A DNA stretch of 64,000 nt from a virus (Duplodnaviria; Heunggongvirae; Uroviricota; Caudoviricetes). This document shows, piece by piece, positions 37,401 to 43,400 of the stretch (its first letter is position 1; every line of letters starts with the position of its first letter). The stretch is from IMG/VR virus record IMGVR_UViG_2703718862_000005, one strand, 5' to 3'. The position numbers are program-made.

Positions 37401-40400
37401 TCGACCATGGCGGCTGTGTGAATACGCTAACCACTCTGCGCCCTTCACCACTGGCGAAGGGAAACCCGCAGCACACTAATCTGGTCGAGATCGAAAAAAT
37501 ATAACCCACGACAATCATAAATTCTGGCATGACATTTTGTTTGAAAAGCAATAAGTGAGTAATGATGAAAATCCATACCACAGAGGCGCTCATGAAGGCT
37601 GAAATCAGCCGTAGAAGTCTGATGAAAACCTCCGCACTTGGCAGTCTTGCGCTGGCAAGCAGTGCTTTCACTCTGCCATTTTCCCAAATGGTCCGGGCGG
37701 CAGAGGCTCCGGTAGAAGAGAAAGCGGTCTGGAGTTCCTGCACCGTTAACTGCGGGAGCCGCTGTCTGTTACGTTTGCATGTGAAAGATGACACCGTGTA
37801 CTGGGTGGAGTCTGATACGACAGGTGACGACGTCTACGGTAACCATCAGGTTCGAGCGTGTTTACGCGGGCGCTCTATCCGCCGACGGATGAATCATCCT
37901 GATAGGTTGAAATATCCCATGAAGCGCGTCGGCAAGCGCGGTGAAGGTAAATTTGAACGGATAAGTTGGGACGAAGCCCTGGATACCATCAGTGATAATC
38001 TTCGGCGGATCCTGAAAGATTACGGCAATGAGGCTGTACATGTCCTGTACGGAACAGGCGTAGATGGCGGAAACATCACCAACTCAAACGTCCCGTACCG
38101 TCTGATGAACTCTTGCGGTGGTTTTCTCAGTCGCTATGGCAGCTACAGTACCGCACAGATCAGTGCCGCAATGAGTTATATGTTCGGTGCCAATGATGGC
38201 AACAGCCCGGATGATATCGCCAATACGAAACTGGTCGTTATGTTCGGAAATAACCCGGCAGAAACGCGGATGAGCGGCGGTGGTGTCACTTACTACGTCG
38301 AGCAAGCCCGCGAACGTTCAAACGCACGCATGATCGTCATCGATCCACGTTATAACGACACTGCTGCCGGGCGTGAAGATGAATGGCTGCCCATTCGCCC
38401 TGGCACCGATGGCGCACTGGCCTGTGCGATTGCCTGGGTACTGATTACTGAAAACATGGTCGATCAGCCATTTCTCGACAAATATTGTGTTGGTTACGAT
38501 GAAAAAACGCTGCCCGCCAACGCACCACGTAACGCGCATTATAAAGCCTATATTCTGGGCGAAGGGCCTGACGGCATAGCTAAAACGCCGGAATGGGCAG
38601 CAAAAATCACCAGCATCCCGGCAGAAAAAATTATCCAGTTGGCACGAGAGATCGGTTCAGCAAAACCTGCTTATATTTGTCAGGGTTGGGGGCCACAACG
38701 ACATTCCAACGGCGAGCAAACGTCCCGCGCTATTGCCATGCTTTCCGTTCTCACCGGTAACGTCGGCATAAACGGCGGCAACTCAGGTGTACGCGAAGGT
38801 AGCTGGGATCTGGGGGTAGAATGGTTCCCGATGCTTGAGAATCCTGTTAAAACGCAGATTTCCGTCTTTACATGGACAGATGCCATCGACCATGGTACGG
38901 AAATGACCGCGACCCGTGATGGTGTTCGTGGAAAAGAAAAACTGGATGTCCCCATCAAGTTTTTATGGTGCTACGCCAGTAACACATTGATCAATCAACA
39001 TGGCGACATCAATCACACCCATGAGGTGCTTCAGGATGACAGCAAGTGCGAGATGATTGTTGGCATTGACCTCTTCATGACGGCCTCGGCTAAGTATTGC
39101 GATATCCTGTTGCCCGACCTGATGCCAACAGAGCAAGAAGACCTTATCTCTCATGAATCTGCAGGGAATATGGGCTATGTGATCCTCGCCCAACCCGCAA
39201 CCTCAGCAAAATTTGAACGCAAACCCATCTACTGGATGCTGAGTGAAGTCGCCAAACGCTTAGGACCAGACGTTTATCAAACCTTTACTGAAGGTCGCAG
39301 TCAGCATGAATGGATCAAATATCTCCATGCGAAAACGAAGGAACGTAACCCTGAGATGCCCGACTACGAGGAGATGAAAACGACCGGGATCTTTAAGAAA
39401 AAATGCCCGGAAGAACACTACGTCGCTTTCCGCGCATTCCGTGAAGATCCACAGGCAAACCCGTTGAAAACACCTTCGGGGAAAATCGAAATTTATTCTG
39501 AACGACTGGCGAAGATTGCAGATACCTGGGAATTGAAAAAAGATGAAATTATTCATCCCCTTCCTGCGTATACCCCAGGTTTTGATGGCTGGGACGATCC
39601 CCTGCGGAAAACCTATCCACTGCAGTTAACGGGCTTCCACTACAAAGCGCGTACCCACTCCAGCTACGGCAATATTGATGTGTTACAGCAGGCCTGCCCA
39701 CAAGAGGTGTGGATCAACCCCATTGATGCTCAGGCACGCGGTATCCGTCATGGCGATACCGTGCGGGTATTTAACAATAATGGAGAAATGCTGATTGCCG
39801 CAAAAGTGACTCCGCGTATTCTGCCTGGCGTTACCGCCATCGGGCAAGGTGCGTGGCTTAAAGCGGATATGTTTGGTGACCGGGTCGATCACGGCGGCAG
39901 TATCAATATTCTGACCTCTCACCGCCCTTCACCGCTGGCAAAGGGAAACCCGTCGCACAGCAATCTTGTCCAGATCGAAAAGGTTTAAGGAGTAGCCCAT
40001 GACCACACAATATGGATTTTTTATCGATTCCAGCCGCTGTACTGGCTGTAAAACCTGCGAACTGGCGTGCAAAGATTTTAAAGTTGGTTACGTATCGTTT
40101 AAAATCAATTAGATAGCCCGTCATTTCTGCGCTCACACGTCCCAACATTGAAAAACATGCAAAGCTTTGTAAGCCGATGCAAAGCTTTGTGTGTCTCACT
40201 TTTGTCCCAATACCAATCCGAATCCACCCTTTGTCATCATTGAGAAATGGCAAGGAAGAAAAGGATGTTACTGCACGATTTGACAAATCTGCCAGAGCTA
40301 TCGCATACTGACTGCACTACAACGTCAGCGGTCAACCGCACCCGATAGCTTTGCGGCTTTTTTATGCCTGTTTACAGGTATCGCCATATCAATGGCGGGT

Positions 40401-43400
40401 CGAGAGAGCCTAATACAATACCCTTTCGGGAAATACGCTCCGCCGTCTGACGCGGTAGTTGAAGCCCGCCACCCCACTAAGGTGGCAGTCAATACTAAAA
40501 CGTCAGGAGTCATAATTATGGCTAATCAACTCATCCCCGTATTCAACGGCACTATCGACAACGAAACAGCCCTACTCTGCAATGCCCGCGATCTGCATGC
40601 TTTTTTAGGCGTGAAAAAGGTGTTTGCGGCATGGATTACAAATCGCATTTCAGAATACGAATTCATTGAAAATCAAGACTATATTTTGCTTTCCAATTTG
40701 GGAAAGCAAACATCTGGTAGAGGCGGTCACAACCGCAAGGATTACCACCTCACCCTCGACACAGCCAAAGAAACGGCGATGGTTGACGACTGCGTCCAAT
40801 ACTGACTATACTCCGCGCCGAGGCCTCGAAAACCTCCCAAAAGCGGATTAAACCAACCCCGTCAGTGTTGGATTTTTTATGCCTGTTATTCAGTGATAGC
40901 ACAGTGTGCGGTCACATCCCCGATCAATGTCGGGAGGGCGACGAATACAACACCCGCAAGGGGAATAAGTCCGCGGTATCTTTTGGGCCGTTTCGAGCCT
41001 CCCGGCACCACATTTTGTGGTGGCATTTCTCGAAAAAAGCCAAAGGAGGTCATCATGACCACTCAACTCATCCCTGTGTTTGAAGGTACAATCTCAAATG
41101 AACCTACGCTTCTGGTGAACGCGCGTGATTTGCATGGATTTTTAGAGGTAGGTAAAGATTTTTCTAACTGGATACGGGCCAAGCTAAACGAGTATGGATT
41201 CGTAGAAAATTTAGACTACATTCTATTTTCGCCAAATTTGGCGAAAACTCCAGGCCGCCGCCGCAAGGATTACCACCTCACCCTCGACACAGCCAAAGAG
41301 CTTGCGATGGTTGAACGTAACGAAAAAGGCCGCCAGATACGCCGATACTTCATCGAGTGCGAAAAGAAACTTCGCAACATTCAGCCAGTACAAACTGAGC
41401 AGCAATTCACAGCAGAAGACATCATCCTGCTCTGCTACGTTCAACTCTGGATGGAAAAAGCACAACAACTCAGTAAGCAGCTATACCCCGTCATGAGAGA
41501 ACTGAATTCTGATTACTACGGGAAACTGTTTGATCTGGCCTACGAGACTCGTCATATAACCAACCGGACTCGCGACACATTGCTCCGCGAAGCAGCAAAA
41601 CTTGATCCCGCCAACTATATGGTGCATAGGGCCAGAAGTATGCTAGCGCAACTAAGAGCAAGACAATTTGAATTCTGATACCAAAGGAGCTTCGGCTCCT
41701 TTTTTCATGCCTGAAGGAAAGGAAAATGGCAGATATCATCGACAATGCCGCTGAAATCGAAGAATTGCAGCGCAATCTCTCCCTGCAAAAATACAAATCC
41801 GAAAGTAATGCCCCATCTGCTACTCATTGTTGCGAGTGTGGCGATCCGATAGATGAGCGGCGACGCCAGGCTGTTCGCGGATGCCGAACTTGCGCCAGTT
41901 GCCAGCAGGATATTGAACTTATCAACAAACAGAGAGGTGTGAAGTGAGCATAGACACCACTATAACGATCGATACGGCCCTCAACACAGGTCTGGCGCTT
42001 CTTGGTTATTTTTACATTATGTTCTGCGCCGGGCGGTGGCTATCGCTGTTGTTACTGAAAAAATGGAATAAATGCCGTAAGCAGGATCAACGCCAGAAGG
42101 CAATGAATGCGTTTTCCGAAGCCTTCGGGATTGACAGCATGGAGCCAGGAGATCCAGCTCGCGTAATTAGCAGAGGTGACGTTGTAATTCTTGTATACCG
42201 GAGCGAAGAGAAAAATGAGCGAGATTAACTATCAGGTACTGCGTGAAAAGGCAGAAAAAGCAACGCGTGGTGAGTGGTCGCTCGAATATGGAGAGAACCG
42301 ATTTGATGGTGATGATGCACTAATTCATCGCGAGGCTGCTGGATATATTCCCATTTGCAGAATTGAAGGAGCACATCCTGAAAGCGGTTTCGATGAAGAT
42401 TTCCAAATGGAACAGCAGGCCAATGCTGAATTCATCGCCGCAGCCAATCCGGCTACCGTGCTGGCACTGCTGGATGAACGGGAAAGAAACCAGCAATACA
42501 TCAAACGCCGCGACCAGGAGAACGAGGATATTGCGCTTACGGTAGGGAAGCTGCGCGTTGAGCTTGAAACAGCAAAATCAAAACTCAACGAGCAGCGTGA
42601 ATATTACGAGGGAGTAATCGCGGATGGAAGTAAGCGCATAGCAGAACTGGAAAAACAATGCGCCGAATGGGAGCGAAAAGCATTAAGCAACTTTGAAGAG
42701 TGTGCTGCGATGGCTGAACGTATCGAAGAGATGCAGACAAAATCTGCACCAGATTCGTTTGGCATCATCGGTGAAAATATTCGAACACAGGACAATCGAA
42801 TAACGTCAGATCCCATGTTTTGTGTGTATCAAAAGCGCGAAATCGTTGTTGATGCTGATTATGACCATGACCGGATTGTCTGGGTTGACGAAGATGGCAA
42901 TGAAGCCAATAAACGCCATAGTCGTCGTCTCGAGCTACTTCATGAAAACTTTCGAGAGCCACCAGAAAAATGGCGGCGCGTTGCTGTGAAAGATATTGAT
43001 GAATTCGTTACCTGCTGTTTCACCGAACAGGGTTGTAAAGACTACCTGGCAGTCAATGGTCACAATCTTCGCTTGCCATTTATATATGTAAAAAGCGGTT
43101 TCCGGAACGCTGAATATATCGGCATAAGAAACTGGCTTGCTGGCATTCGCATCAAAGGAGAGTGATATGGCGTTAACACACCGCGAACTCTGTCAGATTG
43201 CGTACAAGTTCCTTAAGCGCAACGGGTTCAAGGTTTGTTTTCATGACCGCTTTATAGCTGTAACCAGTACCGGAGAACAGCCAGATGCTATGGGATTCAG
43301 AAATTCAGCATCATGCCTGATAGAGGCGAAATGTTCTCGTGCTGACTTGTTGGCAGATAGAAAAAAGCGTTTTCGTAAAAATCCGTCTCTTGGAATGGGC

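What the first reader, a model, noticed from the sequence alone, without database searches (positions are those of the whole stretch)
39999..40520. ynfG truncated by a second phage-like element only 3.6 kb from the ynfE island
The ynfG frame is recognisable for ~27 codons and then diverges into AT-rich DNA with a tandem ATGCAAAGCTTTGT x2 (~40157-40190), followed by phage genes. No integrase is visible at this junction. Two independent insertions flanking ynfF is unusual; the element may be the island's helper, or this end may be a remnant.
Basis: partly seen in the sequence, partly recalled or inferred. Interest (0 to 1): 0.6.

Follow-up and report, generated by a model that had tools for sequence, protein, structure and literature searches.

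The report
Stx phage end in ynfG
This is the ordinary, already published attachment junction where a Shiga-toxin-1-type lambdoid prophage has integrated into the E. coli ynfG gene; its integrase lies at the far end, outside the window, and the 14-bp repeats are conserved P22-type att-arm sites.

Summary
ynfG matches K-12 up to window 40083 (28 codons plus 1 nt) and then becomes phage DNA. The exact 14-mer ATGCAAAGCTTTGT occurs at 40157-40170 and 40177-40190.

It is the int-distal (attR-type, P-arm) junction of a 933W-like short-tailed lambdoid prophage integrated site-specifically in ynfG.
- A near-identical junction in strain JNEC-KY179 belongs to a complete ~63.6 kb Stx1a prophage. Its xis and int lie at the other end, next to the 3' part of ynfG.
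- Both junctions share only the 7-bp core TTTAAAG (40077-40083).
- The phage part is 99.3% identical to Shigella phage 75/02 Stx and 96% to POCJ13. Both are published ynfG integrators.
- The published junction-PCR primers give exactly the published 1,155-bp amplicon on this window.
- 82 of 5,426 complete E. coli genomes carry the same junction.

Int and Xis are about 71-72% identical to P22 Int and Xis, and the att arms align with P22 attP. The 14-bp repeats are conserved there between GTCCCA arm-type repeats, so they are recombination-protein binding sites, probably for Xis.

The ynfE island is an independent element with its own integrase. The helper and remnant readings are not supported. 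No RNA polymerase was found.

Already known; low interest.

The parts
39999..40083 (+). 5' fragment of ynfG (28 codons plus 1 nt). The frame runs on into phage DNA to the TAG at 40110-40112.
   Evidence: Identical to K-12 ynfG up to 40083. RefSeq annotates it as a partial 4Fe-4S protein. Translation.
40077..40083 (.). att core TTTAAAG. This is the only stretch shared by attB, this junction and the int-side junction. I infer it to be the 7-bp overlap (strand-exchange) region.
   Evidence: Three-way alignment A1. In attB it is flanked by the inverted pair AAGAT/ATCTT (read). A related phage, Stx2 II, has a 7-bp attachment site annotated in the same place.
40084..40278 (.). Integrase-specific P arm of attP, joined here to the 5' part of ynfG. 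This makes the junction attR-type (POB' read on the minus strand).
   Evidence: Phages with the same Int (75/02, POCJ13) match from the first base. Phages with other integrases match only from query position 183-198. Stx2 II and 933W share sequence only from TTGACAAATC at 40279/40280. The arm aligns with the P22 attP arm (A3).
40139..40144 (+). GTCCCA, a probable Int arm-type site within the conserved block CTGCGCTCACACGTCCCA.
   Evidence: Conserved across P22-Int-family attP sites. The motif changes to GGCACA or GACACA in more distant Int clades (A3).
40157..40170 (+). Repeat copy 1, ATGCAAAGCTTTGT, containing the palindrome CAAAGCTTTG. A conserved P-arm binding site, probably for Xis.
   Evidence: Conserved at the same position in P22 (ATGCAAAGCCTTGC) and ENT47670, and more weakly in 2G7b and SfI (A3).
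40177..40190 (+). Repeat copy 2, ATGCAAAGCTTTGT, starting 20 bp (about two helical turns) after copy 1.
   Evidence: P22 has ATGCAAAGATTTGT here. TOE17 has one substitution, GTGCAAAG.
40193..40209 (+). GTCTCA-CTTTT-GTCCCA, a pair of probable Int arm-type sites 11 bp apart.
   Evidence: Aligned with P22 GTCCCATTTTTGTCCCA (A3). A matching pair, GTCCCAAATTTGTCCCA, lies in the other arm inside the 3' end of int.
40280..40309 (+). Sigma-70-like promoter TTGACA-18-CATACT, at the start of the ant leader shared with other Stx phages.
   Evidence: 10 of 12 matches. The hexamers are invariant in the three aligned leaders (A4).
40336..40363 (+). Hairpin CCGCA(11 nt)TGCGG followed by CTTTTTT, terminator- or attenuator-like.
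   Evidence: Read from the sequence. It is conserved in 933W, and the second module has compensatory stem changes, CCAAC/GTTGG (A4). The consensus terminator scan did not call it because the loop exceeds 8 nt.
40394..40478 (+). Structured RNA matching Rfam RF02221 (sRNA-Xcc1), in the leader of the AntA ORF.
   Evidence: 53.0 bits, exactly at the gathering score. A second copy at 40929-41014 scores 74.5 bits. The homologue upstream of the 933W ant gene scores 69.1 bits.
40518..40805 (+). Truncated AntA-domain ORF (95 aa), the first phage gene after the junction.
   Evidence: Pfam AntA, E = 1.8e-24. RefSeq marks it as partial.
40084..64000 (.). The int-distal 24 kb of the prophage. On the + strand: ant, traR, DUF4752, ea22 and DUF551 genes. 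On the - strand: the LPD38 giant protein (45007-53427), lom, and tail fibre genes. The prophage continues beyond the window.

Best explanation
Window 39999-40520 is the int-distal (attR-type, P-arm) junction of a 933W-like short-tailed lambdoid prophage (Sepvirinae, close to Shigella phage 75/02 Stx and POCJ13). The prophage is very probably Stx1a-converting and has integrated site-specifically into ynfG.

Mechanism:
- A P22-type heterobivalent tyrosine integrase recombined attP with attB inside ynfG, across the 7-bp overlap TTTAAAG. The integrase is encoded with its Xis at the far end, outside the window.
- This left 28 codons of ynfG fused to the phage P arm on this side.
- The 195-bp arm (40084-40278) is homologous to the P arm of P22 attP. 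It carries GTCCCA-type Int arm sites.
- Between those sites lie the two dyad-symmetric ATGCAAAGCTTTGT sites, 20 bp apart. I infer that these bind the P22-like Xis (recombination directionality factor), bending the arm for excision.
- From 40279 the DNA is no longer att. It is the promoter, hairpin and structured-RNA leader of the phage antirepressor genes, shared with Stx phages that use other integrases.

Shown here: the junction, the core, the homology to known ynfG-integrating phages and to P22 attP, and the complete prophage in near-identical genomes.
Inferred: which protein binds which repeat, and that this particular genome carries the int and stx half.
For: Junction and core:
- K-12 attB, the window junction and the int-side junction of JNEC-KY179 share only TTTAAAG.

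Complete prophage:
- JNEC-KY179 is 99.9% identical over the 3-kb query spanning the junction. There the element is a ~63.6 kb prophage running 'ynfG-int-xis-exo/bet/gam-cI/cro-Q-stx1a-lysis-terminase-portal-capsid-tail.
- The window differs from S19-651 by 5 mismatches in 23 kb.

Identity to known phages:
- 75/02 Stx matches at 99.3% over 93% of the phage part, and POCJ13 at 96.4% over 90%.
- The POCJ13 Int is 100% identical.

Literature:
- POCJ13 and 75/02 integrate in ynfG/S1742, and POCJ13 lysogenises MG1655 at ynfG (PMC4193171; PMC5447701).
- RM10410 has a 62.5-kb Stx1a prophage in ynfG (PMC10562709).
- In-silico PCR with the published S1742_up/Stx_phage_up primers gives 1,155 bp, the published size.

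Frequency:
- 82 of 5,426 complete genomes carry the junction; 81 of them are at least 99% identical over it.

P22-type recombination module:
- Int is 71% and Xis 72% identical to the P22 proteins.
- The attP alignment shows conserved arms and a replaced core (A3).
- The same int-att-ant layout, with its own arm repeats, is present in phage Stx2 II.
Against: - The window ends at 64000, so int, xis, stx1 and the other junction are not seen in this genome.
- No complete genome in the collection was found to match the whole window. The closest phage relatives lack the ynfE island, and the best island matches found reach only 97.5% identity over 91% of the query.
- O104:H4 outbreak strains carry the same junction. 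From my own knowledge their Stx2a phage sits at wrbA, so the junction alone does not prove that stx1 is present.
- The assignment of the 14-bp repeats to Xis rests on position, dyad symmetry and conservation only. The P22 Xis footprinting paper could not be read.
- Pfam does not call a named arm-binding domain in Int; it gives only a sub-threshold DUF6538 match.
- SEN22 and APSE-2, which have related integrases, lack recognisable ATGCAAAG sites.
Confidence: 0.92

Rival explanations
1. This end is a remnant. A degraded, integrase-less fragment of a phage was left in ynfG and can no longer excise.
For: - There is no integrase within the window.
- Several accessory genes near this end are pseudogenised in the closest RefSeq annotations: a partial antA, a frameshifted hypothetical and partial DUF551 genes.
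- The large terminase is annotated as frameshifted in JNEC-KY179.
Against: - The junction is at exactly the att core.
- The 24 kb seen carries long intact virion ORFs, including one of 2,806 aa.
- JNEC-KY179, the near-identical genome whose far end was examined, has the full prophage with int and xis.
- The phages with this module are inducible and transducing (PMC4193171; PMC5447701).
Confidence: 0.06
2. The ynfG phage is the helper of the ynfE island. On this reading the island is a phage satellite that depends on this phage, which would explain why the two sit side by side.
For: - Co-occurrence is above the independence expectation: 9 genomes carry both, against about 2.2 expected from 144 x 82 / 5,426.
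- ES5 shows the same pair.
- The island is small (6.6 kb) and encodes a KilA-N protein.
Against: - 135 of 144 genomes with the island integrase lack this phage, and 73 of 82 genomes with the phage lack the island.
- UMNK88 has the island and an intact ynfG.
- There is no nucleotide similarity between the island and the phage parts in the window. A tblastx run also returned no hits, but I did not confirm that tblastx was installed.
- Pfam finds only an integrase and KilA-N in the island. It finds no primase/replicase, AlpA, capsid-remodelling or packaging genes.
- The excess co-occurrence cannot be separated from clonal relatedness.
- The two elements use different integrases and different att cores.
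Confidence: 0.04
3. The two ATGCAAAGCTTTGT palindromes are operators for a transcriptional regulator of the downstream ant genes, or form a hairpin terminator or small RNA. On this reading they are not att-arm recombination sites.
For: - Each copy contains a perfect 10-bp palindrome, as is typical of dimeric HTH operators.
- The consensus scan calls 40155-40194 a terminator-like hairpin.
- cmscan gives a weak mir-19 hit there (26 bits, E = 0.1).
Against: - The sites lie in the integrase-specific module. They are absent from Stx phages that share the ant leader but use other integrases.
- They are conserved in P22 attP, where the downstream genes are gtrABC rather than ant.
- They sit about 90 bp upstream of the -35 hexamer.
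- The 'hairpin' is simply the consequence of two palindromic repeats. The Rfam hit is far below its threshold (50 bits) and belongs to a eukaryotic family.
Confidence: 0.07

Closest known systems
Shigella phage 75/02 Stx (KF766125 / NC_029120) and Shigella phage POCJ13 (KJ603229), Stx1a-converting Sepvirinae integrated in ynfG/S1742
   Same: - 99.3% (75/02) and 96.4% (POCJ13) nucleotide identity over 90-93% of the phage part of the window, starting at the first phage base.
- The POCJ13 Int is 100% identical to the Int of the near-identical E. coli prophage.
- The integration gene is the same, and the published junction PCR reproduces on the window.
   Different: - The host here is E. coli, with a Qin-like prophage and a ynfE island nearby.
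- There are small differences in the accessory ea22/DUF551 region.
- The stx-bearing half is not visible in the window.
Salmonella phage P22 Int/Xis/attP site-specific recombination module
   Same: - Int is 71% and Xis 72% identical, and the xis-int overlap has the same length.
- Both att arms align. This covers the paired GTCCCA repeats inside the int 3' end, the CTGCGCTCACACGTCCCA block, the two ATGCAAAG sites 20 bp apart and GTC(C/T)CA-N5-GTCCCA.
   Different: - The P22 core is a tRNA-thrW-derived segment annotated as 23 bp. Here the core region is unrelated, and identity with the host target is only 7 bp inside a protein-coding gene.
- The cargo flanking the arm differs: gtrABC in P22, ant genes here.
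933W / Stx2 II type Stx phages (wrbA and other sites)
   Same: - The overall genome layout is the same, with the same int -> att -> ant -> traR -> DUF4752 -> ea22 order across the attachment site.
- Stx2 II has a 7-bp annotated attachment site.
- These phages carry direct arm repeats in both arms (TGCCCCAAA type).
- The ant leader from 40279 onward is homologous.
   Different: The integrase, arm repeats, core and host target are all different. The first 195 bp after the junction are not shared.
Phage lambda attR (POB') with the P1-H1-P2-X1-X2-F arm
   Same: - Works the same way: a heterobivalent Int, a 7-bp overlap and arm-type sites in both arms.
- There are two directly repeated sites about 20 bp apart in the P arm, next to Int arm sites, as for lambda X1/X2. 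The lambda details are from established knowledge, not tested here.
   Different: - There is no sequence similarity to lambda att.
- The arrangement of arm sites follows P22 rather than lambda.
- The Xis is a 116-aa P22-type protein.

Membership tests
ynfG-integrating Stx1a-converting Sepvirinae prophage (75/02 / POCJ13 type) | High nucleotide identity to the reference phages, starting at the att junction | tested here: met
   99.3% over 93% (75/02) and 96.4% over 90% (POCJ13), from query base 1-2.
ynfG-integrating Stx1a-converting Sepvirinae prophage (75/02 / POCJ13 type) | Insertion at the same nucleotide position of ynfG | tested here: met
   The core TTTAAAG is at 40077-40083. The same junction is at least 99% identical in 81 of the 82 genomes that carry it. 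The published primers give the published 1,155-bp product.
ynfG-integrating Stx1a-converting Sepvirinae prophage (75/02 / POCJ13 type) | Cognate integrase and excisionase at the other end, next to the 3' part of ynfG | not testable with these tools
   This lies beyond window position 64000. It is present in the near-identical JNEC-KY179.
ynfG-integrating Stx1a-converting Sepvirinae prophage (75/02 / POCJ13 type) | stx1a operon downstream of Q | not testable with these tools
   Outside the window. Present in JNEC-KY179. O104:H4 strains share the junction; that their stx2a phage sits at wrbA is my recollection. stx1 therefore remains an inference here.
Lambda/P22-type heterobivalent tyrosine-integrase att site | Short identity between attP and attB that contains the overlap region, flanked by inverted core-type sites | tested here: met
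   There is a 7-bp shared core. attB reads AAGAT-TTTAAAG-ATCTT, and attP contains the palindrome AACTTTAAAGTT. Cleavage positions were not determined.
Lambda/P22-type heterobivalent tyrosine-integrase att site | Arm-type repeats in both arms, distinct from the core sequence | tested here: met
   GTCCCA-type repeats occur at 40139, 40193 (GTCTCA) and 40204, with two more in the int-side arm. They are conserved with P22 and co-vary with the Int clade. Binding itself was not tested.
Lambda/P22-type heterobivalent tyrosine-integrase att site | Integrase with a catalytic tyrosine-recombinase domain and an N-terminal arm-binding domain | tested here: inconclusive
   Phage_integrase domain, E = 1.5e-45. 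The N-terminus gives only a sub-threshold DUF6538 match. It is 71% identical to P22 Int over its full length.
Lambda/P22-type heterobivalent tyrosine-integrase att site | Recombination directionality factor (Xis) with binding sites in the P arm | tested here: inconclusive
   A Xis of 116 aa, 72% identical to P22 Xis, with an HTH_17 domain, is present in the relative. Assigning the ATGCAAAGCTTTGT pair as its sites is an inference from position and conservation.
Phage satellite and its helper (PICI-like relation between the ynfE island and this phage) | The satellite is found with its helper and shares regulatory or packaging signals with it | tested here: not met
   135 of 144 genomes with the island integrase lack the phage. 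UMNK88 has an intact ynfG. blastn found no shared sequence; a tblastx run also returned nothing, but I did not confirm that tblastx was installed.
Phage satellite and its helper (PICI-like relation between the ynfE island and this phage) | The satellite carries hallmark genes (replication initiator, AlpA-type regulator, capsid-size or packaging redirection) | tested here: not met
   Pfam finds only Phage_integrase and KilA-N among the six island ORFs tested. Remote homology was not explored.
N4-like phage with a virion single-subunit RNA polymerase | A giant virion protein with an RNA polymerase domain | tested here: not met
   The 2,806-aa ORF contains LPD38, LPD5, LPD1 and MuF_C only. No RNA polymerase is annotated in the complete relative.
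Rfam RF02221 sRNA-Xcc1 (for 40394-40478) | Covariance-model score at or above the gathering threshold | tested here: met
   53.0 bits against a threshold of 53, so exactly at the limit. The second copy at 40929-41014 scores 74.5 bits.

The most novel reading that the evidence does not exclude
The part of the finding that is not att (40279-40520) may be a conserved cis-regulatory leader for the phage antirepressor. It consists of a promoter, a hairpin with a T-tract that has a competing upstream stem, and an sRNA-Xcc1-type structured RNA ending in a stem just before the Shine-Dalgarno sequence.

The module is duplicated in tandem here. It is also present as a single copy in front of ant at the wrbA-side end of the 933W prophage in EDL933. 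An EDL933 study reported an sRNA-Xcc1 that is abundant and poorly translated; it is probably this locus.

If this RNA gates ant expression, then 'sRNA-Xcc1' would be an antirepressor riboregulator rather than a free-standing sRNA. Gating could happen in the lysogen or when int-to-att read-through is restored after excision. It would then bear on spontaneous induction of Stx phages.
Probability: 0.25. Interest if true: 0.45.

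Novelty: already known. Interest (0 to 1): 0.12.

Why it matters
There is little here for discovery. ynfG is a published, experimentally confirmed integration site of Stx1a phages, and the junction is annotated in dozens of RefSeq genomes.

The practical points are these:
- The window very probably comes from an E. coli carrying a Stx1a-type prophage.
- In this strain the ynfEFGH selenate/tellurate reductase operon is inactivated twice, with ynfE split by the island and ynfG split by the phage.
- The comparison shows a P22-type Int/Xis/arm module that has kept its arms while changing its core. P22 uses a tRNA gene; this phage uses a 7-bp match inside a protein-coding gene. 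That is a tidy natural example of how integration specificity shifts.

Tried and rejected
- Single-subunit RNA polymerase. A Pfam scan of the 2,806-aa ORF and the 421-aa neighbour found no polymerase domain.
- Helper/satellite link. Co-occurrence arithmetic, UMNK88 and ES5 and similarity searches give no dependence.
- The terminator-like hit at 40155-40194 and the mir-19 hit. Both are artefacts of the two palindromic repeats.
- The P22 Xis footprinting paper (Mattis et al. 2008). I tried to read it to assign the repeats experimentally, but it is not held. The Xis assignment therefore stays an inference.
- The highly expressed EDL933 sRNA-Xcc1 (PMC5331693). I tried to place it exactly. The coordinates come from another assembly version and differ by about 90 bp in relative position from my mapping in NZ_CP008957.1. 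The identity of the locus is probable but not proven.
- Loci fetched by accession or from the phage collection were not exported to the Python sandbox. Some comparisons were therefore done with the alignment tool, and one arm sequence was typed in.
- I did not find a complete genome in the collection that matches the whole window, with both the island and the phage at 100%.

Full report
**What is in the sequence.**
ynfF ends at 39988 and ynfG starts at 39999. Compared with K-12, the window is identical through ...TGCAAAGATTTTAAAG (40083). It then reads TTGGTTACGTATCG..., where K-12 reads ATCTTGGCCCGG... (alignment A1). The truncated frame runs on for nine phage-encoded codons to a TAG at 40110-40112. 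RefSeq annotates the same 84 bp as a partial 4Fe-4S protein in identical genomes.

The 14-mer ATGCAAAGCTTTGT occurs at 40157-40170 and 40177-40190. It is the only exact 14-mer in the 64-kb window that is repeated within about 50 nt. The arm 40084-40278 is 41.5% GC, against about 51% around it.

**What the element is.**
Megablast of 39000-42000 finds 77 complete E. coli genomes that cover the junction region. Many of them are STEC. The window is collinear with strain S19-651 from 39000 to 62000, with 5 mismatches and no gaps.

In strain JNEC-KY179 (99.9% identical over the junction query) the element is a complete prophage of about 63.6 kb. Read in the window's orientation it runs:
- ynfG', then ant, traR, DUF4752, ea22;
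- then, on the other strand, the giant LPD38 protein, lom, tail fibres, adaptor, N4-gp56-type capsid, portal, terminase, lysis, stx1AB and Q;
- then nin, replication, and cII/cro and cI;
- then kil, gam/bet/exo, xis and int, and finally 'ynfG-ynfH-dmsD.

In the phage collection the best matches are Shigella phage 75/02 Stx (99.3% over 93%) and POCJ13 (96.4% over 90%). Both are published as integrating in ynfG/S1742. POCJ13 was shown experimentally to lysogenise MG1655 at ynfG (PMC4193171; PMC5447701). An avian STEC with a 62.5-kb Stx1a prophage in ynfG has also been described (PMC10562709). So has a clinical isolate (bioRxiv 10.1101/2024.05.07.593058).

The published junction primers S1742_up and Stx_phage_up match the window perfectly at 39759 and 40895-40913. 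They predict 1,155 bp, which is exactly the published amplicon. A 261-bp probe across the junction finds 82 of 5,426 complete genomes; 81 of them are at least 99% identical over it. They include RM10410 and the O104:H4 outbreak lineage.

**The crossover.**
The int-side junction of JNEC-KY179 reads ...GAGCAACAAC-TTTAAAG-ATCTTGGCC. attB, this junction and the int-side junction share only TTTAAAG (window 40077-40083). Seven bases is the length of the overlap region of lambda-type integrases (established knowledge). The related phage Stx2 II also has a 7-bp attachment site annotated in the equivalent place between int and ant.

In attB the core is flanked by the inverted pair AAGAT/ATCTT. In the reconstructed attP it lies inside the perfect palindrome AACTTTAAAGTT (read). 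I infer that TTTAAAG is the strand-exchange overlap. Cleavage sites were not determined.

**The repeats explained.**
The Int of the near-identical prophage is 100% identical to POCJ13 Int and 71% identical to P22 Int. Its Xis is 116 aa, carries an HTH_17 domain and is 72% identical to P22 Xis. The xis and int start codons are 227 nt apart in both phages.

I aligned the reconstructed attP with the int-proximal regions of P22, 2G7b, SEN22, SfI, ENT47670, APSE-2, Edno5 and HK542 (A3). Three points follow:
- The int-side arm carries TGTCCCAAAT(A/T)TGTCCCAC inside the 3' end of int. The motif changes to GGCACA or GACACA in more distant Int clades.
- The central region is a tRNA-derived segment in all the other phages, but an unrelated sequence in the ynfG phage.
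- The distal arm is again conserved: CTGCGCTCACACGTCCCA, then ATGCAAAGC(C/T)TTG(C/T)-AA(A/G)CCG-ATGCAAAG(A/C)TTTGT, then GTC(C/T)CA-N5-GTCCCA.

P22 itself has ATGCAAAGCCTTGC and ATGCAAAGATTTGT at the same 20-bp spacing.

Three features point to Xis as the binding protein. Each copy is dyad-symmetric (CAAAG|CTTTG). The copies lie two helical turns apart. They sit between Int arm sites, as X1/X2 do beside P2 in lambda. I therefore assign them to Xis with a confidence of about 0.6. That they are att-arm protein-binding sites at all I hold at about 0.9. I could not read the P22 Xis footprinting paper.

The module boundary supports this reading. Phages with other integrases match the window only from about 40265-40280 onward. 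Stx2 II and 933W have their own arm repeats (TGCCCCAAA) up to the shared sequence, which starts at TTGACAAATC.

**What follows the arm (still inside the finding's coordinates).**
From 40279 the sequence is the leader of the phage antirepressor genes, and it is shared with 933W-type phages. It contains:
- a sigma-70-like promoter at 40280-40309;
- a hairpin plus T-tract at 40336-40363, with a competing upstream stem GCGG/CCGC;
- a match to Rfam sRNA-Xcc1 at 40394-40478 (53.0 bits, exactly at threshold);
- a further stem, a Shine-Dalgarno sequence and the ATG at 40518 of a truncated AntA ORF.

A second, better-preserved module follows. It has a promoter at 40783-40812, sRNA-Xcc1 at 40929-41014 (74.5 bits) and a full-length Ant at 41055-41678. 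The 933W prophage of EDL933 has one such module upstream of ant, about 440 bp from its wrbA junction (69.1 bits). The three leaders align with compensatory changes in their stems (A4).

An EDL933 RNA-seq/Ribo-seq study lists one sRNA-Xcc1 at 1.392 Mb as abundant and poorly translated (PMC5331693). This is probably the same locus, although the assembly coordinates differ. In APSE phages the family also sits upstream of an ORF6N protein (PMC7313666).

**The ynfE island and the 'helper' idea.**
The island occupies 29843-36473. It is bounded by the imperfect 15-bp direct repeat AGT(T/C)CATCTGGAACT. It encodes its own tyrosine integrase (ORF 34829-36412, minus strand) and a KilA-N protein; the other four ORFs tested gave no Pfam match.

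Its integrase occurs in 144 of 5,426 genomes. A combined probe shows that 9 genomes carry both the island integrase and the ynfG phage arm, since 217 = 144 + 82 - 9. Independence would predict about 2.2, but clonal relatedness is not controlled for. ES5 shows the same double occupancy, whereas UMNK88 has the island with an intact ynfG. The island shares no detectable similarity with either prophage segment in the window. The two insertions are therefore independent events by two different integrases. A helper relationship is not supported.

**Other checks.**
The 2,806-aa ORF (45007-53427) is a polyvalent virion protein with LPD38, LPD5, LPD1 and MuF_C domains and no RNA polymerase domain.

**Limits.**
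The window stops inside the prophage, so int, xis, stx1 and the second junction are inferred from near-identical genomes. O104:H4 strains share the junction; from my own knowledge their stx2a phage is at wrbA. The presence of stx1 here is therefore probable but not shown.

**Verdict.**
This is a correctly spotted but ordinary and already published feature. It is the attR-type junction of a ynfG-integrated, 75/02/POCJ13-like lambdoid prophage that is very probably Stx1a-converting and carries a P22-type recombination module. Novelty: already known. Interest: 0.12.

Noticed in passing
window 29843-36473 (direct repeats at 29828-29842 and 36474-36488): The ynfE island is 6.6 kb and is bounded by the imperfect 15-bp direct repeat AGT(T/C)CATCTGGAACT. 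It has its own 527-aa tyrosine integrase ORF (34829-36412, minus strand), a KilA-N protein (32548-33306, minus strand) and four ORFs with no Pfam match. The integrase is present in 144 of 5,426 complete E. coli genomes. The function of the cargo is unknown.
   Followed up: partly
window 40279-41678: There are two tandem antirepressor leader modules. Each has a sigma-70-like promoter, a hairpin with a T-tract, an Rfam sRNA-Xcc1 match (40394-40478 at 53.0 bits; 40929-41014 at 74.5 bits), a stem before the Shine-Dalgarno sequence and an AntA-domain ORF. The first ORF is truncated to 95 aa and the second is a full 207 aa. The same single module precedes ant at the end of 933W in EDL933 (L019 2320-2408). 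An EDL933 study reported an sRNA-Xcc1 RNA there as abundant; it is probably this locus. The leaders show compensatory stem changes, so this may be a cis-regulator of ant rather than a free sRNA.
   Followed up: partly
window 40252-40265; L007 (TOE17): A short purine repeat, AAGGAAGAA(AAGGA), lies at the outer edge of the att arm. It is expanded by 18 bp (two 9-bp units) in strain TOE17. That strain also has the only substitution seen in the second 14-bp repeat (A to G).
   Followed up: no
window 28432-40083: The ynfEFGH-dmsD operon is interrupted twice in this strain. ynfE is split by the island and ynfG by the phage. That leaves an intact but orphaned ynfF. It also separates ynfH and dmsD from the operon promoter by more than 60 kb of prophage.
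   Followed up: no
window 1-23071: A third integrase-bearing element lies in the same 64 kb. It is a Qin-like prophage (rem, hokD, dicB, ydfD, a large exonuclease, excisionase) with an integrase at 21776-23071 next to rspB. The gene names are taken from the annotation of the collinear strain S19-651.
   Followed up: no
reconstructed attP (L002 6505-6560 minus strand, plus window 40084-40100): The attP core of this P22-family integrase lies in a perfect 12-bp palindrome, AACTTTAAAGTT. It shares only 7 bp with its target in a protein-coding gene. All the other family members aligned here use a long tRNA-derived core. This is a natural case of conserved arms with a swapped core.
   Followed up: partly
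RefSeq records (e.g. NZ_CP075852.1, NZ_CP075652.1, NZ_CP045712.1, NZ_CP077649.1): At least a dozen complete-genome records place this junction at record coordinates of about 31-36 kb. Their sequence start therefore lies inside this prophage. Presumably an automated start-fixing step picked a phage gene. This splits the prophage across the record origin.
   Followed up: no
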